Part shown: piece after piece, positions 1 to 62,985 of the stretch
Layout of the letters: every line of letters begins with the position of its first letter
Position numbering within the stretch: position 1 is the first letter of the stretch
From: Eledone cirrhosa
Lineage: Eukaryota
Reading direction: 5' to 3'
DNA: 64,000 nt
NCBI GenBank assembly: GCA_964016885.1
Contig: OZ024747.1
Coordinates: 9,920,001 to 9,984,000 of the forward strand
Made by a program: the position numbers and the translations under genes
The notes under the pieces: model-generated
What the model was told of the DNA's origin: nothing
Databases searched by the model: none
Seen by the model: the letters and a program-made list of their open reading frames with translations, nothing else

Positions 1-308
1 AAGTGACATCTTGCTTTCACACCTTCCAGCTTTGGCATCATTTCTACAGCTGGATGTCTTTCCTGTCACTAACTACTTTACAAAGTGTACTGCATACATT
101 TTACCCACACCTGGGAAGTTGTCATGTCCTTGATTCAACTGAAAAGTCCTCTCAAATATATATATATATATAAGTAGAAGGGGTATTTAATTTGTTGGAA
201 GTTCGACAAATATAAATGTTTATAACTGATTTAGAGCACTCAACAAGTTACTGGAGTAAATATTCAATGATATTAAATAAATGGAAACTATATTTATAAA
301 ACCATATT

Positions 309-372
309 TATTTTATTATATATATTTCAAGGATACCAAGACAACATTGGTACGCTTTCATCAGATAAAATA
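309..372 (-). ncRNA. Minimal type I hammerhead ribozyme motif (left arm)
   Basis: Reverse complement reads TATTTTAT CTGATGA AAGCGTACCAA TGTTGTC TTGGTATCCTT GAAA TATATA TA ATAAAATA: 8-bp stem I, stem II and a palindromic stem III. Confidence 0.75.
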
Positions 373-456
373 CAGAGTTTGTTTTATAAATAGAGACATA
401 CCCATGAAAATCATACCTTATCGGTTGGAAATTCACTATTTATAAAACAAACTTTG

Positions 457-520
457 TATTTTATCTGATGAAAGCATACCAATGTTGTCTTGGTACCCTT
501 GAAATATATATAATAAAATA
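457..520 (+). ncRNA. Minimal type I hammerhead ribozyme motif (right arm)
   Basis: Stem I TATTTTAT 457-464 pairs with ATAAAATA 513-520. CTGATGA at 465-471, stem II TACCAA/TTGGTA, GAAA at 501-504, palindromic TATATA, then UH site TA at 511-512. Confidence 0.75.
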
Positions 521-965
521 AATATGGTTTTATAAATATAGTTTCCATTTATTTAATATCATTGTGTATATATATATATATATTATTTGTTTTTGTTTTG
601 CATTGTTTTTGAAAAGGAGGTTATGTTGAAATATACTGGGTGAGAAAGACATTGCTTTGTTTTGTTTTATCATCCTTTGCCCTATATATACATTTCTACC
701 GCATTGTACCAGCTTTCTGAAATACTTATTAGTCATATAAATATATATATATATAAATATATATAAATATATATATATATATATAATCAATACTTGTAGT
801 AATAGTAGTGGTAGCAGCAATAGTCGACTTGTATTTGCTACCACAAAAAACTATTTATGCAAGTTGTAGTATATAGAGTGTTTCTTAGGTAATTGTTGGG
901 GGCAGAGCAGTGGGATTAGTTGGTGCGAGGTGGACCCCACCCCCCCCACCCCACCCCACCCCCCA

Positions 966-10651: not shown

Positions 10652-13600
10652 GATAATGACAGCAACATCATCGATGACAACACCAAAAAGACAACTGGTG
10701 TGCTAGATTCAACAGATATGGAAAAACTCCAAAGGAATCACAAGAACTCACACAAACTTCAGAACAACTCGCTATTGACTTGTCAAGCTTGCTTTCAGTT
10801 GACAGTTCGGAGATTTCTAATGAACTGTCACATGACTATGTTGCTAAGCGACCAAAATCTCCAGAAGATCATTCGGAGTCATCTCAGGAAACATCTTCAT
10901 CTGATTCTGATGGAGACTATCCATCAAATCAACATCTAATTCTAGAATTTGGTGTAGAAAATGATGTGAACAATAAGTGTGCCGAGGTTCTGTTGGCGGA
11001 CATTTCATCAGATGAGGTCCAACTACATTCTGAAGAGGTTCGAGAGGAGACAGATAAGGTAGCATTAATTGAACCAAATCTCTCTAAAACAATTGTTTCA
11101 GCTCATCCTATCACAGCTGAAGAACAAATCCCCACTGAAGAATTTCCAGAACATTCTCAGTGTCTCACTTTCCAAGCAACTGAAGAAATCTCTGAAGAGA
11201 ATTCCATCATAGAAACTGGAGTTGATTTCACCGAAGGTCTTCATGACAAAATGTTTGATGATGTTTCAGGATTTGTTGACAGAAAAGAAAATTTCTTTGG
11301 AATTACTCGTCAACAGATTAATAGACCTTTACTTAAGTACAGTCTTCCCATTAGCATCAGCCAGGCTGAATCTAGTCCCTCTTTACAAGAAGGGTCTCGT
11401 TGTGAAACGTCTCCAGAAACTCTAAGTTCTTATGTGGATATTTGCCAGATGAAGCTAACTGATAGTCTACTAGAGAGTGAAAATAAAGAAATATTTGCAG
11501 ACTTGTGTAAAAGCAAGGAGTGTAATGTGAACCAGCCTGTAGATTTGAGTGAATCCCAACAGGTAGATAAGAAAGTAGATAATGTCAATGTTTTGGAATC
11601 CATTGAGAAAGAATTTGATATTACTTCAGTTAGCTCTTTTGAAGAAAGTAGCGTAATAATTTCAGACAATTCTTTAAATGAGAAATCAATGTCTGACAAA
11701 TACGATTCTGAAGAGAAAACAACACCAATTACTCTTGATGAAGTGAAATCGAACATTACGGAAGATATCTTGAAAAAACAGTCAGAAGATAACTTGTCCG
11801 ATACTGAGATAAAGTTGAAACAAGAAAAACCTTGTGAAACTACTCAGACATTGTCAGAAGAATTTTACAAAGAATGTTCTGGAAGTGAATCAAGTGAAGT
11901 TGTGGCTGAGCTACCAGAAGAACTAAAGAAACAAGAAGATCAATTTACTCTTTCAGAGAAACAATGGGCAACATTAGATGAAGACCAAAGACAGGAAGCA
12001 GACATGTGTGGAAATTACAGTACCGAGAAAGAGACTGATACTGGTATAAAGAATACAGGAACCAAGAATAAAAAGAAAAAGAAACAGAAGAGAAAACCAA
12101 AGTTCTTTGCTCTTGATAATGAAATGTTAATGCAGTTTGTTGAAACAACAGCAGAATTATCCAAGGAATCTGAATTCGAATGTTCAGGCATAGATCCAAA
12201 CATATCTTCAATGGAGGAAAATGATAGTGCTATATCTAAAGACCAAATCAAAGTTCAACCTTTGGCTGATCAACAAATGGAACAATCTTTGGAAGAATTA
12301 GCATCAACTAACTTAGAAGCTGAAGACAAACTTCAAATATCTGAAGATTTGGATACTTTAAGGCAGAATAAGATCAGTTCAGAGGAAACAGAAGAACGTG
12401 ATGTGTCACATGATGCTGTCTTTGTGAATGCCATTGCTGAACAGATGTCTTCAGACGAACTGCTGGAGTCTGAGCTTACTGCAAATGTGATAGAAGAAAA
12501 TGCTGAAATAGAAGAGGTGAAGCAAGTTGTAGATAAATTAGCTGTGAGTCCTTGTAAGGAAATGCTTACTCATGAAACTGAGATCTCCTCAAGTATAGAA
12601 TTGAAGGTCAGTGAAATTATTAGTGAAGCAATCAAAGACAACACGATCAACGTTAAGTGTATAGATGAAGTCAACTTTGATTCAGCTTCAGTCCAACAAC
12701 ATGAAACATTTGTGAATGAAGCTTACACTGAGTCTTGTCAGCTTCCCAAGGAACAAACAGACATAGAGGTCGTTCAACATATTTCCGTTGACCAATTGGA
12801 GAAGAAAGGTGGACAGAAGAAGAAAAAGATTGATTTTGTAAAATGTGCCAAGATTTCAGATGTTGAGGAAACATTTACAATGTCATCCAATGTTAATTTA
12901 ACTGGTGAGTGGAACAAAGTAACTCAGCTGGAGATAGAATACAGTTCATGTCTATTGAAGACAGCAGAAGATCCAGTTCAGTTGGAGATTGACAGCATCA
13001 CTGCTCCACTGGAAACAAAGGAAAGTACGGAGATAGAAGATGACAGTACAGTTCTATTGAAGACTGAGGATAGTACAGGCTTGATGGAAACTCAAGACAG
13101 TACAGTTCTGTTGAAGACTGAGGACAGTTCAGGCTTGTTAGAGAGTGGTGATAGTACAGTTCTGTTGAAGACTGAGGACAGTACAGGCTTGATGGAAACT
13201 CAAGACAGTACAGTTCTGTTGAAGACTGAGGATAGTTCAGGCTTGATAGAGAGTGAGGACAGTACAGTTCTGTTGAAGACTGATGATAGTACATCTCAGT
13301 TGGAAACTTGGGACAGTAGTACAGTTCTGTTGGAGACAGAAACATCCAGAAAACCAGCTTTGATTTCAGAAAAAATAGATCTGGAATCAAAGATTACAGA
13401 AATTGAGCCAAAAAAGCAGTTAGAACATAAATGTGATGGTGAAACTATCGTTGCCACCAATACCACGTTGCCTGTTCAGTCAGCTGTAACAGGAGGTGAT
13501 TTAAATGTACCAGAGGAGGAAAAACCAAAGAAGAAACGAAAGAAAAGGAGATCTCCATTCTTGTATGGTGAAGACGCAATCAGTTCATCTGTTATTATAG

Positions 13601-35180: not shown

Positions 35181-35230
35181 CTATTTAGCTCTTACAATTC
35201 CAAACTCTTTTCCTAAAGCATCCATTTCAA
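35181..35230 (-). CDS. ATP5ME: ATP synthase subunit e, exon 4 ((V)EMDALGKEFGIVRAK*)
   Basis: Acceptor ttctatttttcag, phase matches exon 3 (G+TT), TAG stop, followed by AATAAA. Confidence 0.8.
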
Positions 35231-35900: not shown

Positions 35901-35954
35901 TACTTCCCCAAATACCATGAAGTTTTTTCACCATCCTCCTCAGACCAAATCATT

Positions 35955-36653: not shown

Positions 36654-36755
36654 CTGCAGTTGCTCGGGCAGTCTCTTTCTTCAACTGACAATCTCGGAGA
36701 GCTCGATATACCTGCTCCTCTTTCTGAATTACAACTTCTTTGGCAGAAAGAGACT
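36654..36755 (-). CDS. ATP5ME: ATP synthase subunit e, exon 3 ((K)SLSAKEVVIQKEEQVYRALRDCQLKKETARATA)
   Basis: Acceptor ttgttatcctcag, donor gttggt, 102 nt, phase 1-1. Encodes a charged coiled-coil-like segment as in subunit e. Confidence 0.88.
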
Positions 36756-39468: not shown

Positions 39469-39523
39469 TGTATCTGAAGTGACCATAGGCTAGCCCACTT
39501 AACAAAGCAGCATATCTGCAGAA
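39469..39523 (-). CDS. ATP5ME: ATP synthase subunit e, exon 2 (FCRYAALLSGLAYGHFRY)
   Basis: Acceptor tctttctatttgtag, donor gtaagt, 55 nt. Matches the subunit e transmembrane motif RYSALxxGxxYG, including the GxxxG. Confidence 0.93.
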
Positions 39524-39557
39524 CTACAAATAGAAAGATATACAATCAAGAATAACA

Positions 39558-39843
39558 AATACATCTGGTGTTATAGTTCAACTTTTAGAATACATCTGGT
39601 GTTATAGTTCAACCTTTAAAATACATCTGGTGTTAAAGTTCAACTTTTAGAATACATCTGGTGTTATAGTTCAACTTTTAGAATACATCTGGTGTTATAG
39701 TTCAAATTTTAGAATACATCTGGTGTTATAGTTCAGCTTTTAGAATACATCTGGTGTTATAGTTCAGCTTTTAGAATACATCTGGTGTTATAGTTCAGCT
39801 TTTAGAATACATCTGGTGTTATAGTTCAGCTTTTAGAATACAT
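39558..39843. repeat. ~31-bp minisatellite x ~9 (AATACATCTGGTGTTATAGTTCARCTTTTAG)
   Basis: Head-to-tail units with no unique spacers. Confidence 0.92.
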
Positions 39844-40789
39844 ACAGTGATGATAATGATGGCTTTCAGAATAAAATTATAATTTTTGTAAATCCTTCCC
39901 AAATTCTTCATGAGTTAATTAAAATACGAAGTAACTCATTAGAAATATGCTAATTTAAGCCATGACTGCCATTTTTTCAGTCACTCTACATTATCCAACA
40001 TAGTCTTCCCTTTTCTTTCACTATGTATAGTTTAAAGGAGATTTAGCTGCTATATCAAGCAGATCAACTGTATCATGTAAAGCAATGATGACAACCCTTT
40101 CTTGTCCAACACAGAAATTTAACCTTGCCTCGAGTGCCAGACAGTCTGGCACCAGCCCTGAGCACAGGATGTTAAGCATTAAGATAAAAGACATGTTCAA
40201 GGTAATGGATAAGGTTGTCTCCACATTTGAGATGATGGAAGTATGAGAGAACATTTGGCAGGGTCAGAAAAGTTGCCTATCTCCAGAATAGAGTTATACT
40301 GTAATGTTTCCAAAAGATTGGGATATATACCTATAGAGGGAGACAGAGAGATTGAAGAGTTTGACCTAGTATGTCCTAGCTCTGGGATGCATAATTTAAG
40401 GTTAATAGGACATTGTCAGGGTCAGTGGTCTTGTTAGTTGGAAGTAACCTGGTATTCTTTTTTATATTTAGCTCAGAACTGCCTTATTCTGACCAATGGT
40501 CAACAGCCTTCTAGCTATGACTACATTATCTTATTTTTAGACATAGCGTATCTAAGACTACATTATATGTCTTGTCTTGTTCAAGACAGTAAGGCGTGAT
40601 TAAAGAGGGATCTGGCTGCTATTTCTAGCAGATTGAACAACCACTCAGAGGCCTCTCTTTCCGTTCATCACGTGTCTGTCTGTGTTAGTGGCGATGAATG
40701 TGGTTGAGTGGAAAAGCATAGTTTCGGAGAAAATGTGATAGATCGATGCAATAGGCACCAGATTAAATATTGAGATTGATACAATTGAG

Positions 40790-40955
40790 AAACTCTTGAA
40801 GTAGTTAACACATTCTAATTAATGACTGAAGCTAGTAAAATAATAACTCTTGAAGTAGTTAACACATCCTAATTAATGACTGAAGCTAGTAAAATAATAA
40901 CTCTTGAAGTAGTTAACACATTCTAATTAATGACTGAAGCTAGTAAAATAATAAC
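40790..40955. repeat. ~54-bp tandem repeat x3
   Basis: AACTCTTGAAGTAGTTAACACATTCTAATTAATGACTGAAGCTAGTAAAATAAT occurs three times. Confidence 0.9.
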
Positions 40956-41542
40956 ACCAGTGAAACGGGAAGAAAATATAATATTCTACAAGAATTTTTC
41001 AATATACAATTATTAGTTGTGTTTAATGAGGGAAATGTGGTACTAATGACATTTGTCGGGGATCTCCGGTACGAGTGGAAGAAATTTACCCCTACGACTG
41101 ACCCGATTGGTTGTTACAGAGAAATAAACTCCGAGGAAATCTCCCGAGGGTCGAGTGATTCCGTTAAACCAAGTCATGGAACAATGAATGTTAAAGACAA
41201 TACTTTACGTCAATACATAAATATATCTAACGGAATTGAAACCAAGAATATATATATATATATATTATGTGTGTGTGTTAGGTAAATTGCAAAGGAAAAG
41301 CAATGGAAAAAGAGTGCTCTATGTATAGAACAGAGCTATTTAATTAGAAAGTGAACAACACAAAGTTATATTGTGTTGTTCATGTTCTAATTAAATATAT
41401 ATATATATGCAGAGGTTATATTTAATTCATTGGGATTCAACAAGCTTAAAAATGTTTATAACTTATATAAAGCACTCAACAGAAAAGTGGAGTAAATACA
41501 CAATATATTAATAAATGGAAACTATATTTATAAAACCATATT

Positions 41543-41608
41543 TATTTTATTATATATATTTCAAGGGCGACCAAGGCAAATTATGGTGCGCTTTCATCAG
41601 ATAAAATA
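41543..41608 (-). ncRNA. Minimal type I hammerhead motif, sense to the ATP synthase e pre-mRNA
   Basis: Reverse complement reads TATTTTAT CTGATGA AAGCGCACC...GGTCGCCCTT GAAA TATATA TA ATAAAATA. Confidence 0.72.
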
Positions 41609-41620
41609 CAGATTTGTTTT

Positions 41621-43493
41621 CATCATCACCGTTTTACGTCCATTCTTCCATGCTAGCATGGGTTAGATGGGTTGTCCTGTTGTGGGCAGTGTCTGGTCGG
41701 CTGACCATGCCTTGCTCATACAGGAACTGATTTTGGCTTGGTTTCTACAGCTGGATGCCCTTCCTAACACCAACCTCATTTACAGTGAGTGCTGGGTGCT
41801 TTTTTCCGCGGCGCCTGCATGTCCACTTTAGTGTGGGCTGGGTGCTTTTTTGCCGTGGCACCTCCACGACCACTTTGCAGTGGGAGGGTGTGGGGGCATA
41901 TTGTCTATATGCTTCAGCTTGTACCCATGGGAGGTTGGGTACTCTGTATTACTGCGTGACGCCAGAGGTCACGGTCGTGTGTCTTTTATCACCTCATCCC
42001 AGGTCTTCTTGGGTCTCCCCACTCCGCGGTTTCCATTGACTTCAAGTGCTCTGCACCTTTTCATGCAGCTGTCATCCTTCATACGCATCACATGTCCATA
42101 CCAACACAACCGCCTCTCTTGCACACAGCATTTGATTCCTCCTATGCTCAGTCTCTCTCTCAATTCATTTATGCTTTGCCGTTTGCGTATATTACTATTA
42201 CACATCCATCGGAGCATGAGGCTTCGTTTCTTTCTAATCTACGCAAGTCTTCCACGGACAGCGCCCAGGTCTCACTACCATGTAACATTGCGGTTCGTAA
42301 ACACACATCATACAGCCTGCCTTTTATTTTGAGGGAGAAGCCTTTTGCAGCTAGCAGTGGCAATAGTTCCCTGAACTTCTTCCATCCCGTTCTTACCCTA
42401 GTTATTGTACTTTCTGAATACCCACCTCCGCTGCTAATTCGGTCACCTAGGTAGGAGAAGCTGTCTACTGTTTCTACAGAGCCCTCCCAGAGATTGGTGG
42501 TACTTGTTTCCTGTGGCTGTTTGCTGCCCCAGCACAGCTGCTACATTCTTAATTAAGCTTCCTGAGATCCCGCTACATCTCTTGTGTTTGCATTTGGGGC
42601 AGAGAATAGAGTTCCTACCTACACCTTTCCTACATACTGAGCAAGGCCATTTCCCTGAGGGGATCTGGGTTCTGTTTTCTCGTCTACTTACAAGGACCTT
42701 AGTCTTTGTCATGTTGACTTTGAGACCCTTTCTTTCTAGTCCCTGCTTCTAAGTTTGGAATTTCTTCTCTAGTTCTACCATAGATTCATCTATAAGTGCG
42801 AGGTCATCTGCATACAGGAGTTCCCATGGGCATCCGGTCTTAAACTCCTCCGCTATTGCCTGCAGAACTATGATGAACAGGAGAGGGCTAAGAACAGAGC
42901 CCTGGTGGACACCAACCTGTACGCTAAATTCCTCGCTATACTCATTGCTAATCCTAACTTTGCTGACTGCTCCCCTATACATGGCTTGTACAGCTTTCAC
43001 AAGCCATTCATCTACTCCTAATTTTCTAAGAGCCCACCAGATTATAACACATGGAACTCTGTCAAAGGCTTTCTCGAGATCGACGAATGCCAGGTAGAGT
43101 GGCTTACTTTTAGCTAGGTACTTTTCCTGTAACTGCCTCACAAGGAAGAGGGCATCAGTGGTGCCTCTTCCTGGTACAAACCCAAATTGCATCTCATCTA
43201 ATTTCACCCGGTCCCTAATCAACTGTGCTATTATTCTTTCTGTTACTTTCATGACCTGGTCCATCAGCTTTATACCTCTATAGTTTCCTCTATCTAGTGC
43301 ATCACCTTTACCTTTGTAGCAGTTGACAATGATGCTACTGCACCAATCATTTGGTATGACACCTTCTAGTATTACCTGGTTAACAATACGTGTGGTTATA
43401 GTGTGACCTACAGACCCAGATGCCTTCAGCATCTCGGCAGCTATACCCGATGGACCGGTTGCCTTCCCCATCTTCATATCTTTGATTACCTTC
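41621..43493 (-). mobile_element. 5'-truncated, inactivated RTE-clade non-LTR retrotransposon
   Basis: RT motifs KATGPSG, NYRGIKL, FVDLEKAFD, GVHQGSVLSP and YADD (42749-43495), then a premature TAG and frameshifts. Followed by a KWPCSVC Cys-rich segment, MLHGSETW, RLCWYGHVMRM, a 3' UTR and a (GAT)n end. Confidence 0.93.
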
Positions 43494-43634
43494 ATAAATA
43501 AATTTTTACATACCCAGATAAAAAGACAACCTTAACGGTTGGAGCTTCCTGGATAGTGACTATCCAGGAAGCTCCAACCGTTAAGGTTGTCTTTTTTTCC
43601 GGGTATGTCAATATTTATTTATAAAACAAATCTG

Positions 43635-43700
43635 TATTTTATCTGATGAAAGCGCACCATAATTTGCCTTGGTTGCCCTTGAAATATATATAATAAAATA
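43635..43700 (+). ncRNA. Minimal type I hammerhead motif (right arm of copy 2)
   Basis: TATTTTAT 43635-43642, CTGATGA 43643-43649, stem II, GAAA 43681-43684, TATATA TA, ATAAAATA. Confidence 0.72.
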
Positions 43701-43749
43701 AATATGGTTTTATAAATATAGTTTCCATTTATTAATAGATTGTGAATAT

Positions 43750-43803
<54 letters not shown>

Positions 43804-43902
43804 CAGGGTGTCCCAAAAAATGTATACACACTTTGATTACCTATACAGGCAATATTTATTAGAATGCTGTTGAAGTGAGTATACATTTTTTTGGACACCC
43901 TG
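43804..43902. mobile_element. ~100-bp Tc1/mariner MITE
   Basis: TIRs CAGGGTGTCCCAAAAAATGTATACACACTT / AAGTGAGTATACATTTTTTTGGACACCCTG, inserted in a TA tract. Confidence 0.85.
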
Positions 43903-44370
43903 TGTATATATATATATAAACAGGTTTCGCCCAGTATTAGTCCAGGCCATAGCAAAGGTAAAACTATATATACAATTACATTTGCTATGTGAACGAGTGG
44001 ACTTGAGATGTCCCCACCTCCTGTGTAAGGTCGTATCTGAATTTCGGGTATATTCTGCTTCTGGTTAATGTTTTTTAAACCTCCGAAGATGGTTGAAGTA
44101 TAATATATCTATATATATAATTTTGTATGCATAGATCTTGATTATATGAATTTTTACCTAACATTATTCGAATAATTTGATGTTCAACTCACTTCAAACG
44201 TGTAAGGAATTAAAAAAATGATTTAAAAGCTAATTTCTCCATCTGTATATTTCATCTTATATATATATACATGGCGTTGTATTGTAGGATGGTAGTTTAC
44301 TTTTGCTTGGGCTCGTGGTTGTCTTTGATTTAATCTGGATGTATTTACGTTAGAGTGAAGGCAATTGATG

Positions 44371-44415
<45 letters not shown>

Positions 44416-44805
44416 GGGAAAACAATATTGCGTTCGATCTCAACTTAACCAATTCAAATAAGTTGTTGGTTGGCTCAGTATGAACTAAGAACACACTGAA
44501 ATTACTAACCTCTGTTGTACAAATTATTAAGAAAATAGACTTCTCAGGAAGTTTTCTTTAAAAGATGTAATACTGCTATTGAAATAAATAAATCCATCGA
44601 GATATTCTAAGGAAAACATTTGAACTTGAAAATAAAGACACGGGTTCAAGATCACCTTGGCTATATTAATGAGGAAATATAAGATATATTAATGAAGGGA
44701 TAAGATATCTTTTTAAATATTATAATATTAAAAACACAAATGTTTGTTATTATAGAAATGAAGACAATATCTTATGTTGGTAAATTAAATCTAAATAAAT
44801 CTTAC

Positions 44806-44850
44806 TTTGATCAAAGGAGAAACAGCGAGAGGTGCAGCGGCGGCAGCCAT
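44806..44850 (-). CDS. ATP5ME: ATP synthase subunit e, exon 1 (MAAAAAPLAVSPLIK)
   Basis: Start context caacATGG, the conserved VSPLIK N-terminal motif of subunit e, and a phase-0 donor gtaaga. The spliced CDS is 252 nt (83 aa plus stop). Confidence 0.93.
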
Positions 44851-57593: not shown

Positions 57594-57768
57594 AGGATAG
57601 TAGACGTGTTTCATATCGCTCTGTGATTTGGAATTTTACCTGCTATATTTGTGAGTGAATTTTTTTGAATTCTTTTGTATCATTAACTCTAACCCCTAGT
57701 CTGGGACTATAGACGTAGGGTAAATATATTTTCACCCCTTTTGGGGTGAAAAAATAAATATTTCAGAA

Positions 57769-59523
57769 ATGTTTATCGATATCGTTGATAACGTTATCGT
57801 CGAAAACGATATCGCCATATTGGAAGCGAACGCCACGCCGACCAAAAAAACAAGCGGGAAAGAGGGAACAACAGTTCAAACTGTTGAACAGCCCCTCCTC
57901 TCCAATGAAAAAAAAAAGAATTTTAATTCAAATGAAAAAATTAATTTTCAAGAAAAAAATAACACCACAAATAAGGAAACCAACAACATTACAACAACAA
58001 ACACAGACAACAAAATTTCTTTTGCCCAAACACTCAGGAAAGCCACGGAATACAAACCCATTGACATCACGAACGCTAAGGAAAATTTGCTAGAGGCTAG
58101 AAAATACGTATCTTTTGGGGAGGATGGTTCTTTTACGATCAACTCCCCAGAAGAAGTGCGTCAACAGATTTACAAGAATACCGTAACCTACAGAACCATA
58201 ACCAACGAAACGAGAAAGCCAGCGCAATTGACCGAAAGTCAAATTGAGCTGGTTCTGAAAGAAATTAAAGACGACATACTCTTTATTCAAAGAGGAAGGC
58301 TGTATGCCAGCATTATGGTCCGAATGAAGGATGAAATGCTGGCTCAGAAATATTCGGTGGCACCTATAGTGTCACCACAATACACCTTCTTCCCCACATA
58401 TAAAGGAAGAAGAACACAAAGGATAAGAATGTGGAGCCCTACGCCAGAAATTAACATCTGGTCCGTCCTAACAGGATTTACCGACCTAGATAAGGACATA
58501 CTCATTTCAGCAGGGGAGTCCACCAGTGGACTGTTCGGGGGGAAAAGTCTGGAGGTTCTCTTACAGATGACACCTGAGAGAATCTCCGGAATACCCGACC
58601 GAGTGCTACTGGATGGGCGAACCTTCATAAATATCACAGTGGAAGGCAGGAGACCCTCATGTTACCACTGCGCTGGCAGAGGTCACCTGAGGACGGCCTG
58701 CCCTCTACTAACAACAAAAAAACCACTGCTACAAACACCACAACAACAAAAACAACCAGCACCACCATCACAAAAACAACAAAATACACTACCATCACCA
58801 CCAGAACGACAACAAAAACCAACACCACCACCACCACCACCACAACATCATCAACAACAGCTCAAGAAAACAACCCAAAACACGGTCCCACCCAGCCCCA
58901 CCCCACAGAACACAAATACAAAAACAGTTCATACACAACCCGGAGATATACCCCTCCCCTCCAATACGGAAGAGGAGCTCATATCGTCGGAAGACGAGGG
59001 GGCTCCCTTCCAAAAAGTGAAAAGAAAAAAACGTACACACACCACACAAACAAAAATAACCCCCCCTGACAACACAACACAGACAATAAAACGCAAACTC
59101 ACTCAACAACAACAAGCAAAAACAAACACAACAACACAAAAACTCTACACATACATAAACAAAAACAATGAAAACCTAACTTTAAAAATAGAAACCAACC
59201 CTTCGCTACAAACCGAAGGGCCGAATTTCGTAACGGCAATGGGGCTCCCTAACCTGAAAATGGTGAAAATCCCACTTGAGATTTTCAAAACTTTGAAAGA
59301 CATTTACCCTGAGGACGTGGGCCCACCCTGTACCAGGCCACTCAACCGCGTCCTCCTGAAAGGTTTTCCCCTCCCCTCCTCAAACACCCACACAACTCCA
59401 AAGATCCCAATCCCTCCACACACTAATACCCCCACACCACCACAAACCACCACCCCACCCATCAACCCCTCCACCAGCCCCATGGAAACTGAGCGACCCG
59501 AACCCCGGGACGCAGAGAGGTAA
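57769..59523 (+). CDS. Retrotransposon ORF1 (584 aa, gag-like CCHC knuckle CYHCAGRGHLRTAC, Pro/Gln/Thr-rich tail)
   Basis: Uninterrupted ORF with a CX2CX4HX4C motif, positioned upstream of pol. Confidence 0.9.
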   Translation: MFIDIVDNVIVENDIAILEANATPTKKTSGKEGTTVQTVEQPLLSNEKKKNFNSNEKINFQEKNNTTNKETNNITTTNTDNKISFAQTLRKATEYKPIDITNAKENLLEARKYVSFGEDGSFTINSPEEVRQQIYKNTVTYRTITNETRKPAQLTESQIELVLKEIKDDILFIQRGRLYASIMVRMKDEMLAQKYSVAPIVSPQYTFFPTYKGRRTQRIRMWSPTPEINIWSVLTGFTDLDKDILISAGESTSGLFGGKSLEVLLQMTPERISGIPDRVLLDGRTFINITVEGRRPSCYHCAGRGHLRTACPLLTTKKPLLQTPQQQKQPAPPSQKQQNTLPSPPERQQKPTPPPPPPQHHQQQLKKTTQNTVPPSPTPQNTNTKTVHTQPGDIPLPSNTEEELISSEDEGAPFQKVKRKKRTHTTQTKITPPDNTTQTIKRKLTQQQQAKTNTTTQKLYTYINKNNENLTLKIETNPSLQTEGPNFVTAMGLPNLKMVKIPLEIFKTLKDIYPEDVGPPCTRPLNRVLLKGFPLPSSNTHTTPKIPIPPHTNTPTPPQTTTPPINPSTSPMETERPEPRDAER

Positions 59524-59546
59524 GTGCCTCTTTCTTTGCCACCAAC

Positions 59547-62500
59547 ATGGCTGTCTTAAGAGTAGGTTGTCTAAATGCGCGTGGCCTGGGCTCACCTTGG
59601 AAGCAAGCTAAACTTCTAAGTGACCTCAGGTCACAATGTGTAAATGTGATGGTTATTTGCGAGGCCCGGATCAGCAACATGCGACAGCTAACCCCCACCT
59701 TTGATGACTTTGAGATGCACGCATCTCTCTGTCAGCCTGGAGGTGGGGGTGGGGTTGTCGTTCTGCTGCAAAAACATCTGGGTCTCGCTACACAGACGGT
59801 ACACTTGGACCCGGAGGGTCGACTCGTGGTTCTGGACCTTGGCAATGGCGAAGGCGAAGCTTTTAGGCTTGTCGCCGTATACGCCCCTTTTGGGGCAATG
59901 CGGTCGGACTTCTTCCATCGTCTGGAGACTTTTCTAGGGACGTCCCGCTCCTTGCTTTTAGTGGGGGGACTGGAATGGTATCCTAGATGCACGTTGGGAC
60001 TATGTAGGGGCATGTCCCGATAGAGGGGGGTGTAACAGCCTTAAGGGGTTAATCGGCCGATTCGACCTGGCCGATAGATACCGACTAGATTTTCCGACTG
60101 TACCAACCTGGACCTGGTCAAATAACAGTGATCAATCTAGATCGTACCTAGATAGGTTCTTAGTTAGAATTAAGGATAGGGACTTTTTAAGTTGTCCAGA
60201 AATGCTCATGGTGGGCTATTCAGACCACAAGTTAGTGACCTGCGTAGTCCACCTTGATAGAACGCATAGGCAGGGGCCCGGTTACTGGAAGCTCAACTTG
60301 TCCTTACCGGCAAGTAGAGCTTACAGGGACCGGATTAGAACCTTAGTTAAGGAGCGGTTGACGGGCGCCATCGTCAACAACAGGTGGTGGGGCTCTCTAA
60401 AAAGAGAGATTAGAGTAGTTTCAATAGGAGTTAGTAAGGAGTTAGCCTCAGATAGAAATAGGAAGGAAAGGGAGTTGGTAGTTAATGTTGAAGAGGCAAT
60501 GAGAAGCAGCAATGTGGCTAGAGTGCAAGCGTCGAGAACGGTCTTGAACCAGTTCTTCGACACGAAACACGAAGGCTGCGTTGTCCGAAGTAAAATACGT
60601 GCTATGGGAAACGAGGGGACCAAAGCTGTTAGCTGGGCCCGCGTGACAGAAGCGAAAAGTGGGATTAAATCCACTATCCGGTCTTTGCGAGACCAGGATG
60701 GACGGGTGATCCTTGAACCTAAGCAAATGTGCGAGGCCTTTCAAAGGCACTTTGCCCAATTGTTCGGGAGGGGCGGGGAGCCGGTTGGAGATGTGGATTT
60801 CGGTCCATACCTCGACGGCCTGCCGCGTCTTTCGGACAGGGAGGCGAGGTCCTGCGACGGGCCGATCTCAGCTGCTGAAATAGGGGACGTGCTGAGCCTA
60901 TGCGGCAAACGCAAATCTCCAGGACTCGATGGTCTGCCCTACGAACTATATATTAATATGCCGGACTTGTTCCCCGATCTCCTCGAGGCGGTCTACTGCA
61001 ACTGGCAACAGAACGGGAGAATTCCCTGTTCTGTGACCAAGGGCGTAGTCTCGCTAGTGAGGAAGGACGAGAACAAGGGGGATGACATTAGTAATTTTAG
61101 GCCCATAACTCTGCTAAATGCAGAGTTAAAGATTTTGGCGAAGGTGTTAGCGAAGAGGTTGGCGCTTGTCGTGGGGGGGCCTGGTGGGAGATGCGCAGAC
61201 ATGCGCTATCCCGTCCAGGTCCATCCACGACAACCTCCACCTCATGCGATACATCATAGAGAGGGTTGGGAACGAACCCGGCTTTGGTGGGGCCCTGATA
61301 AATTTAGATCAGTCTAAAGCGTTCGATAGGGTGGACCATGGTTACCTGGATGCGGTGCTAGCGGCGGCTGGGTTCGGACCCGTTTTCAGGGGCTGGATCA
61401 CTGCCATGCACAGCAGCTGCATCTGCTCTAGAGTCAAGGTGAACGGCTACCTTTCGGAGCCGTTCGAAATCACACGCTCCATCCGACAGGGATGCCCTCT
61501 CTCCTCCCTTCTGTATGTATTGGCTCTCGAGCCACTACTGCGGAAGTTGGAGTTGTTGCAGGGCATCCCTTTGGAACCGGGATTGCGCAAAGCGGTGTCG
61601 GCCTATGCCGATGACGTAACAGTAATGGTGTCGACCACCTCGGAAATCGAGGCAATCGGCACCTTACTGGAGGAGTACGAAAGGTTGACAGGGGCTAAGC
61701 TGAACCGGGACACGTCAGTCGCTTTGCAACTCGGCGAGTGGAGGGGCAAAGCGATGTCGTGCGACGGTATCGTCGGACATGGACGGAGGGCCCGGTGAAG
61801 TTGCTTGGGGTGTGGTTCGGACCGGACCTCCAGGTGGAGAAAAACTGGGGTGAGGTGACGAATAGGGTGTTTGCACTGACCCAGAAGTGGGCCGAGTGCA
61901 AACTATCCCTGAAAGGTCGGGCGGAGGTGGCGAACGCTTACATAGCGTCCGTCATCTATTACCGCTTGACTGTCGTGCCTTGCCCGGGTGAGATCCTCGC
62001 CAAAATGGAGCGCGCCCTCTTTTATTTCCTTTGGAAGAAGAGGTCTCCTCTGGTGAGGAGATCCATCTGCTGTCAACACCCTCTGAAAGGAGGGCTGGGG
62101 ATGCCGTGGCTAAAAATGCGTAAACACGCATTGAGGCTAAGGTACCTCCAGGTATTCCTCACCGGTCAACCGGTGTGGGCCCCGTTTGTGAGGCGAGCCT
62201 TCCCGAGGCTCGTCTCGCTCACCGAGCTGCAGTCCTGGGTGAAGCAAAGACCGAGAAAACTGGGCGACTGGCACATCGAGTGTGCCCAGGCGCTCACGGC
62301 TCTCTGGCAGGCGGACCCGGCTATCGACGGAGACTCCACCTCGTCATTCTATAGAGGGCTGGTGGTTAGCGGGTGCGACGACGCCCTTGGAGAAGCCCTA
62401 GGCATGGAGGAGGACGAACTGGCCAGTCTATTCGGTAGGACTTTCGGCCCGGGACCTATGGACAACTTCCAGAAGTCCTTGGCCTGGCAGTGCTACCGAG

Positions 62501-62985
62501 GGGCTCTGCCCGTTCGGGATAAGCTCTACAGACACGGGCGCCCGGGTAGGGACCCCTCGAAAAAGATCTGTCCCAGATGCGTGCGCGATGAGGAAACCGT
62601 CGCGCACGCATTGGTGCACTGCCCGGGCGTTGCCGATCTGTGGGGCTATGTCGAACAACTGCTGTCACGGGTGGGACCAATTAGGTTGACCACCGAGTCC
62701 ATAGTAACGATCAAGCCGCCTCCCCCCTTCAAAAATGAAGGAGAGGCGGTCTTCCTCTGTGTAATAGCCATGGTAAAAGAGGCTATATGGTGGACGCGTC
62801 TGAAAGGGCTGAGGTCGGACACCTTTCTCTCCGGCCAACAACTGGTCCTTTTCTTCCGATACCATTTCGGAAGAAGGATCAGGATGGAGAGAGAGGTGCT
62901 CCACTCCAGCCAGTTTTATGAAAGGTGGGTGAAAGTTGCGAGAATGGACCGTGTGAATGGGCCTTCTCTCTACCTCAGCCTGTAG
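59547..62985 (+). CDS. Retrotransposon ORF2 (APE + RT + Cys-rich domain), with three 1-nt frameshifts at about 59965, 61175 and 61779
   Basis: Motifs NARGL, VYAP, GDWN, YLDRF, SDH, GYWKLN, KSPGLDG, FRPITLLN, DQSKAFDRV, RQGCPLS, YADD, LLGVWF and CPRC..HALVHC. No in-frame stops once the shifts are corrected. Confidence 0.9.

What the first reader, a model, noticed from the sequence alone, without database searches (positions are those of the whole stretch)
41499..43745. Sense-strand hammerhead and long dsRNA stem inside an essential gene's first intron
Seen: the minus-strand hammerhead (41543-41608) is sense to the ATP synthase e pre-mRNA. Its antisense arm (43635-43700) is transcribed first, about 2 kb earlier, along with a perfect 38-bp hairpin (43520-43596). 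Established: long dsRNA is an ADAR substrate and coleoid cephalopods edit RNA extensively; minimal hammerheads are weak as monomers. Inference: the antisense arm and the need for dimerisation neutralise the ribozyme, explaining why it is tolerated. A-to-I editing or the RTE spacer could modulate this, making it a candidate intronic self-cleavage switch.
Basis: partly seen in the sequence, partly recalled or inferred. Interest (0 to 1): 0.7.

Follow-up and report, generated by a model that had tools for sequence, protein, structure and literature searches.

The report
Split Penelope stump in an intron
The hammerhead motif, its mirror copy and the hairpin in this ATP synthase subunit e intron are all parts of one mirror-image end of a Penelope-type jumping gene that has thousands of copies in the genome and was later split by a second jumping gene, so it is likely a harmless passenger and not a gene switch.

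Summary
A type I hammerhead (41543-41608, minus) lies sense in intron 1 of ATP synthase e, with a 97% antisense arm and a perfect 38-bp hairpin. The switch reading is not supported. All three pieces are one head-to-head pair of ends (pLTRs) of a Hydra-type Penelope-like retrotransposon, inserted in (TA)n; a dead RTE LINE later split one arm. The genome holds 2,345 exact copies of a 30-base core and 7,259 intact hammerheads. Among the first 100 exact copies, 13 close pairs point outwards as here and none inwards. In that geometry any transcript reads the antisense arm first, so the order needs no selection. The monomer is predicted to reach its active fold less than 1 time in 10,000 even without the arm, and the pre-mRNA has no second sense copy to dimerise with. 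Editing of the duplex is plausible but would hardly open it. No RNA data could be tested. Inverted pLTRs and opposite-strand hammerheads are in print, and this scan noted the same kind of insert in at least seven other windows.

The parts
44806..44850 (-). ATP synthase subunit e, coding part of exon 1
   Evidence: start codon, GT donor at 44805
39524..44805 (-). intron 1 (5,282 nt), host of the insertion
   Evidence: GT..AG ends, frame kept across four exons
39469..39523 (-). exon 2
   Evidence: PF05680, E 2.4e-4, just under cut-off
36654..36755 (-). exon 3
35181..35230 (-). exon 4, coding part to the stop codon
41408..41619 (-). Penelope-like pLTR, 3' part of the tail-bearing arm (sense to the host gene); ends in (TA)n
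   Evidence: colinear with family copy L032 through the tail
41543..41608 (-). type I hammerhead motif, sense in the pre-mRNA; predicted cut 41551/41550
41408..41492 (-). one-sided tail of about 87 nt, absent from the other arm
   Evidence: family ends cluster at +107 and +194 from the core
41620..43492 (-). 5'-truncated RTE-type LINE with (TGA)n end, premature stop and frameshifts, inserted into the left arm
   Evidence: (RVT_1 E 2e-25)
43493..43558 (-). 5' part of the tail-bearing arm, cut off from the rest by the RTE
43520..43596 (.). perfect 38-bp hairpin = centre of the original palindrome
43559..43750 (+). inverted pLTR arm without tail (antisense in the pre-mRNA); ends in (TA)n
43635..43700 (+). 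second hammerhead motif, antisense to the host gene

Best explanation
The hammerhead, its antisense arm and the hairpin are one head-to-head pair of ends of an abundant Penelope-like retrotransposon, split by a decayed RTE LINE, and it likely sits in the intron as a neutral passenger whose ribozyme is predicted not to cut. Shown: the element inserted into a (TA)n tract as a palindrome with 192-bp arms and a tail on one side; the RTE lies inside one arm with no family bases missing; the same layout recurs across the genome; longer copies join this end to an RT plus GIY-YIG-type frame with Hydra-clade motifs. Inferred: in the pre-mRNA the centre folds at once into a 65-bp stem, the outer arms pair across the 1.9-kb RTE loop, the ribozyme stays off first because its 2-bp helix III needs a partner or the element's protein and second because of the duplex, and the intron is spliced out normally. 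Some A-to-I editing of the duplex is likely but without effect on the gene.
For: Copy number: 2,345 exact 30-mers, reversed control 0; 7,259 intact cores with helix III and the 3' strand of helix I; 39 other copies at 97-99% among the 40 scored of 704 candidates. Geometry: among the first 100 listed exact copies, 14 neighbours lie within 5 kb (0.24 expected): 13 point outwards, 1 tandem, 0 inwards. 19 of 30 position-ordered loci have an inverted family piece upstream within 1.5 kb, 8 of 30 covering the whole hammerhead, 0 of 30 downstream (L072 and L073 are one insertion). A second such palindrome is at 257-572 of this window. Link to the coding element on the same strand: L035, L063, L087, L088, L092; L092 shows inverted pLTR + pLTR + ORF + 3' UTR + pLTR. 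Order of events: both halves of the left arm are contiguous in family copies. Drift: arms differ at 4 of 127 and 5 of 65 bases, like the RTE's 2-3% from its nearest copies. Weak monomer: active fold -4.8 against -10.5 kcal/mol for the best fold; predicted share of the active fold 9e-5 alone and 2e-10 in 391 nt of context without the antisense arm. No second true sense hammerhead in the pre-mRNA. Literature: single minimal PLE hammerheads showed no detectable cleavage and opposite-strand pairs 100-700 bp apart were noted (PMC4209133); inverted 5' copies and tails are typical (PMC8557442, PMC3846280).
Against: No RNA was examined, so cleavage, editing and splicing are untested. The core of the sense copy is intact. 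The PAc hammerhead cuts when the element's protein is added (PMC11167929), so a helper could act in trans. A preprint reports that hammerhead retrozymes are depleted in Xenopus introns (10.64898/2026.07.22.740005, passages), which hints at some cost of intronic copies. Pfam did not recognise RT or GIY-YIG in the family's frames; that assignment rests on motifs read by eye. Presence of the insertion in other individuals or species could not be determined. Folding energies are 37 C models without tertiary contacts.
Confidence: 0.9

Rival explanations
1. Passive protection under selection: lone sense copies in introns do cut now and then (as dimers in trans or with the element's protein) and are purged, while palindromic copies like this one survive because the antisense arm locks them. 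No switch, but the arm matters.
For: Duplex of -178.5 kcal/mol; intact core; protein-assisted cleavage of a PLE hammerhead in vitro (PMC11167929, main text); intron depletion of retrozymes in Xenopus (preprint passages).
Against: The pairing arises without selection. The monomer is predicted inactive without the arm. The intermolecular helix III is worth only -3.2 kcal/mol. None of the 32 arms in 16 position-ordered pairs starts at the cut site, which suggests that cut RNA is not a usual template. Slow hammerheads leave splicing intact (PMC2995048, PMC10919898, passages citing Dye 2006 and Fong 2009, which I did not read).
Confidence: 0.07
2. Regulated intronic self-cleavage switch: A-to-I editing or the RTE spacer loosens the duplex, frees the hammerhead and lowers ATP synthase e mRNA.
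For: Intronic ribozymes can tune splicing (CPEB3, PMC10919898). Squid editing outside the nervous system falls mainly on repeats in introns and 3' UTRs (PMC9068888, passages). The 1.9-kb spacer would delay pairing compared with an unbroken hairpin (inference).
Against: Turning half of all A's into G's in silico still leaves -153 kcal/mol (G-U overstates I-U stability), while five core A's would be hit too. A freed monomer is predicted inactive. The insertion is young and drifting and is one of thousands. CPEB3 is a conserved single-copy fast ribozyme; this is not shown to be any of these.
Confidence: 0.02
3. A DNA-transposon MITE with terminal inverted repeats, or an assembly artefact, rather than a retroelement end.
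For: The arms look like terminal inverted repeats around a spacer. Junction-spanning contigs were not visible in the listed rows.
Against: Arms are of unequal length with a one-sided tail, junction points vary between copies, and the same end is joined to an RT/endonuclease frame. The arms differ at 9 of 192 bases, which a mis-assembled duplicate would not.
Confidence: 0.01

Closest known systems
Insertion units of endonuclease-bearing Penelope-like elements: inverted 5'-truncated pLTR next to a pLTR, with a one-sided tail (PMC8557442 Fig. 2 legend; PMC3846280; PMC11167929)
   Same: Head-to-head arms, palindrome at the junction, tail on one arm only, hammerhead in the pLTR, AT-rich target.
   Different: The tail is about 87 nt, not 30-40. 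This copy has no body, only two ends. One arm is split by an RTE LINE.
Hydra clade of PLEs, including Hydra-1_Obim (PMC8557442 section 11 and supplement)
   Same: C-terminal endonuclease, CxCX5C linker, CxxC and CxH motifs near the end, (TA)n target, hammerhead near the 3' end, and similar RT motifs by eye.
   Different: The hammerhead listed for Hydra-1_oBim has another sequence and a longer helix III; a 10-base core motif of this family was not found in that supplement. This family has a 1.5-kb AT-rich 3' UTR. No tree was built.
Minimal / short-helix-III type I hammerheads of metazoan PLEs (PMC4209133)
   Same: Intact core, palindromic 2-bp helix III, long helix II, mass occurrence as stumps, pairs on opposite strands.
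   Different: Helix II closes with A-U where G10.1-C11.1 is reported as highly conserved; helix I is 8 bp.
Intronic regulatory ribozyme CPEB3 (PMC10919898) and conserved amniote intronic hammerheads (title seen in a reference list only)
   Same: Sense ribozyme motif inside an intron.
   Different: Those are conserved and active as single units; this is a young multicopy repeat, predicted inactive alone and paired with its own antisense copy.

Membership tests
EN+ Penelope-like element | pLTR joined to an ORF with RT and C-terminal GIY-YIG-type endonuclease | tested here: met
   Same-strand link in L035, L063, L087, L088, L092. RT and endonuclease motifs read by eye; Pfam found neither. The window copy itself has no ORF.
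EN+ Penelope-like element | Inverted, truncated copy adjacent at the 5' end | tested here: met
   Window arms meet at 43558; 19 of 30 loci upstream, 0 of 30 downstream; 16 of 29 abut within 25 nt.
EN+ Penelope-like element | Tail on one end only | tested here: met
   Left arm ends near +194, right arm at +107; 11 of 16 position-ordered pairs have one end of each kind.
EN+ Penelope-like element | Hammerhead motif in the pLTR | tested here: met
EN+ Penelope-like element | Target-site duplication | tested here: inconclusive
   Both ends merge into (TA)n, so none can be read.
Hydra clade | CxCX5C linker, CxxC and CxH motifs around the end of the endonuclease | tested here: met
   Seen in the L084 frame and, for the linker, in L035 and L032 against the definition.
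Hydra clade | Insertion into (TA)n | tested here: met
   Window flanks and most copy ends.
Hydra clade | N-terminal RWK and DKT motifs; placement in the RT tree | not tested
   The frames retrieved lack the N-terminus; no tree was built.
Active monomeric hammerhead ribozyme | Conserved core and NUH cut triplet | tested here: met
   CUGAUGA, GAAA, AUA triplet.
Active monomeric hammerhead ribozyme | Stable helix III and a dominant active fold | tested here: not met
   2-bp helix III; predicted share of active fold 9e-5 or less.
Active monomeric hammerhead ribozyme | Measured self-cleavage | not testable with these tools
   Needs in vitro transcription or nascent RNA ends.
Regulatory intronic ribozyme (CPEB3 type) | Locus-specific, distinct from a mobile family | tested here: not met
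   2,345 exact 30-mers; 97-99% identity to other copies.
Regulatory intronic ribozyme (CPEB3 type) | Conserved at the orthologous site; effect on mRNA level | not testable with these tools
   No relatives held for this genome; no RNA run listed.
RTE-type LINE (spacer) | RT frame, (TGA)n end, 5' truncation, many copies | tested here: met
   RVT_1 E 2e-25; 39 other copies at 97-98%; a 75%-alike relative in L036 has endonuclease + RT + PHD-like domains. The label RTE is from recalled features of the clade; no tree.

The most novel reading that the evidence does not exclude
The RTE turned an instantly zipped hairpin into a slow 2-kb loop. This opens a short window in which the sense hammerhead can be folded by the element's own protein or by a partner copy in trans, so that bursts of Penelope expression cut ATP synthase e pre-mRNA, and in the same way many other introns among thousands of intact copies, with ADAR tuning the lock.
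Probability: 0.03. Interest if true: 0.75.

Novelty: new member of a known kind. Interest (0 to 1): 0.12.

Why it matters
As it stands it matters little: it is one more stump of a known kind of insertion. It does show that 'antisense arm first' is built into head-to-head Penelope inserts and is no sign of regulation. The family is a useful test bed. With over 7,000 intact hammerheads, an annotation-based count of sense versus antisense and paired versus lone intronic copies would show directly whether PLE hammerheads ever cost the host anything, which is an open question about their function. If the switch reading were true it would link retrotransposon activity and RNA editing to host pre-mRNA cleavage.

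Tried and rejected
Rfam scan of the whole window: 0 matches at gathering score. Public runs: no RNA holder listed; this says nothing on expression or editing. Laying contigs and RAD reads: output was swamped by other copies of both repeats; no junction-spanning piece and no empty allele could be read from the rows shown, so fixation, polymorphism and assembly support stay open. A>G differences come from other repeat copies in DNA-like runs and are not editing. Summed depths there are not copy numbers and were not used. A join 41346-43858 in one run (24 letters on the short side, depth 280) was rejected as repeat-derived. Pfam on eight frames from fetched loci did not name the PLE domains of this family. 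A second loose core at 35943 has no helix II and was rejected. A T-to-C change in helix II of the sense copy was absent from 30 of 30 sampled copies, but occurs in other copies listed and falls at a predicted bulge, so it was rejected as a sign of tuning. My first label 'Neptune-type' was dropped for Hydra-type. PMC3737548 passages gave nothing useful. Look-ups of earlier findings by place and by sequence were blank. Four-term search hammerhead + octopus + intron + Penelope listed 3 of 4 papers, none about this locus by title and abstract start.

Full report
Observation. On the minus strand, 41543-41608 has the layout of a type I hammerhead: 8-bp helix I, CUGAUGA, a 31-nt helix II region, GAAA, a 2-bp helix III with a palindromic loop, and a predicted cut between 41551 and 41550. 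A near-identical copy lies on the plus strand at 43635-43700. The arms are 97% complementary over 128 nt. The hairpin is perfect over 38 bp at 43520-43596 and runs on to 65 bp with 5 mismatches. Rfam gave no match at gathering score.

Host gene. Four minus-strand exons (44850-44806, 39523-39469, 36755-36654, 35230-35181) with GT-AG introns give an open frame of 83 codons. Exon 2 matches PF05680 at E 2.4e-4, just under the cut-off. The only other genome match over the cut-off is full of stops. So the motif is sense in a 5,282-nt intron, 3,254 nt from the donor and 2,027 nt from the acceptor. 'Essential' was not tested; the start of one abstract describes CRISPR loss of the human subunit in living cancer cells (PMC13179060, search listing only). 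That the animal is an octopus comes from earlier notes of this scan on the same genome, not from a test of mine.

What the pieces are. Hairpin and arms are one palindrome centred on 43558. The right arm is 43559-43750. The left arm is 43558-43493 plus 41619 to about 41408, and its two halves are contiguous in other copies of the family. Between them lies a 1,873-nt LINE: RVT_1 at E 2e-25, (TGA)n end, 5' truncation at 43492, a premature stop and frameshifts, and 39 other copies at 97-98% among 40 scored of 3,894 candidates. The RTE therefore came second. Both outer ends merge into (TA)n. The left arm has about 87 extra bases, a one-sided tail.

The family. A search with the right arm gave 704 candidates; of the 40 scored, 39 other copies are 97-99% identical. 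A 30-base core has 2,345 exact matches, reversed control 0. A gapped pattern for intact core, helix III and 3' strand of helix I has 7,259. Longer copies join this end, through a 1.5-kb AT-rich UTR, to a same-strand frame with RT-like and C-terminal endonuclease-like motifs (L035; L063; L087, L088, L092). L092 shows the full textbook unit: inverted pLTR, pLTR, ORF, UTR, pLTR. The linker is CxCX5C, with CxxC and CxH motifs near the end, which matches the definition of the Hydra clade (PMC8557442 section 11). That paper lists a (TA)n-targeting Hydra family from an octopus with a different hammerhead (supplement rows). Pfam did not name these domains and I built no tree, so Hydra membership rests on motifs.

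Why the antisense arm comes first. Among the first 100 listed exact copies, 14 neighbours lie within 5 kb, where 0.24 are expected; 13 point outwards as in the window, 1 is tandem, none points inwards. Of 30 position-ordered loci, 19 have an inverted family piece upstream within 1.5 kb, 8 of them covering the whole hammerhead, and 0 have one downstream (two of the 30 are one insertion). A second palindrome of a sister subfamily sits at 257-572 of this window. In an outward-pointing pair, a polymerase crossing from either side reads the first arm antisense and the second sense. The order is geometry, not evidence of selection. Spacers of 1-4 kb also occur elsewhere: in 4 of 6 fetched cases mostly the element's own body, in 2 of 6 largely other sequence that I did not identify. 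The literature describes this layout: inverted 5' copies and tails (PMC8557442, passages and Fig. 2 legend), palindromes at head-to-head junctions (PMC3846280, passages), and hammerhead pairs on opposite strands 100-700 bp apart (PMC4209133, parts 1-2 of 4).

Would the ribozyme cut? The active monomer fold is -4.8 kcal/mol against -10.5 for the best fold. Its predicted share is 9e-5 for the bare motif and 2e-10 in 391 nt of context without the antisense arm. The pre-mRNA has no second true sense copy, and the intermolecular helix III is worth -3.2 kcal/mol. Single minimal PLE hammerheads showed no detectable cleavage in vitro (PMC4209133). The PAc hammerhead cut only when the element's protein was added, was not needed for insertion, and left no read ends in RNA-seq (PMC11167929, parts 1-2 of 4). 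None of 32 arms in 16 position-ordered pairs begins at the cut site; half of these arms were chosen to contain the core and could not, so this is weak. The arm duplex is -178.5 kcal/mol, a second lock on a motif that is probably off already. Even a cut might not matter: slow intronic hammerheads left splicing intact while a fast HDV ribozyme did not (passages of PMC2995048 and PMC10919898; the primary papers were not read).

Editing. Squid editing of the ubiquitous type falls mainly on repeats in introns and 3' UTRs (PMC9068888, passages), so editing here is plausible. It is untested, as no RNA run was available. Random A-to-G changes at 50% of A's leave the duplex at -153 kcal/mol; this overstates stability because I-U is weaker than G-U (recalled). 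The same editing would hit five core A's; all five stay unedited with chance 0.17 at 30% editing. Editing is more likely to spoil the ribozyme than to free it (inference).

Age and selection. The arms, presumably near-identical at insertion, differ at 4 of 127 and 5 of 65 bases, about the same drift per copy as the RTE. Nothing marks this copy as preserved beyond its family. Conservation across species could not be tested.

Results against my reading. The core is intact; protein help in trans is documented for a relative; and a preprint finds hammerhead retrozymes depleted in Xenopus introns, although 42-44% of them still overlap introns (10.64898/2026.07.22.740005, passages; its supplements were not seen). 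These keep a small chance that pairing protects the host (0.07) or that the locus is regulated (0.02).

Verdict. A real structure with an ordinary origin: a head-to-head Hydra-type Penelope stump split by a dead RTE. Earlier notes of this scan reached the same reading for other windows; they are unreviewed and not independent support. Interest 0.12; new member of a known kind.

Noticed in passing
family loci L045-L074, L044; window 43558: 5' ends of the arms cluster 80-85 bases upstream of the hammerhead core in 7 of 16 position-ordered pairs, just after an AT-rich stretch in long copies. This may be the pLTR's transcription start, so many stumps could be copies of a short transcript and not random truncations.
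   Followed up: partly
family loci: Two fixed 3' ends (+107 and +194 from the core); 11 of 16 pairs have one of each. The tail of about 87 nt is longer than the 30-40 nt described for other PLEs and fits two reverse-transcription start sites.
   Followed up: partly
window 257-572: Second head-to-head hammerhead palindrome of a sister subfamily; helix II keeps its pairing with a different loop.
   Followed up: partly
window 39496-39905: 31-bp tandem array (about ten to twelve units) ending close upstream of the exon 2 acceptor.
   Followed up: no
window 41337-41397: 61-bp imperfect palindrome just outside the left end of the insertion.
   Followed up: no
window 43788-43918: Small element with 46-nt inverted ends between (TA)n tracts, MITE-like; the Tc1/mariner likeness is recalled, not tested.
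   Followed up: no
window 40791-40955: Three tandem copies of a 54-bp unit in intron 1.
   Followed up: no
window 10678-16938: A 2,087-codon open frame on the plus strand, rich in S, E and K, with an internal short repeat near 13800-14200.
   Followed up: no
window 57724-62982: Large frames of another LINE-like element (ORF1-like, endonuclease, RT, with frameshifts) on the plus strand.
   Followed up: no
G000:C11:12029736-12029912: A PF05680 match with five stops; possibly a decayed retrocopy of subunit e or a chance hit.
   Followed up: no
L090, L091: Outward-pointing arm pairs separated by about 1 kb that matches neither the element's ORF nor this RTE.
   Followed up: no
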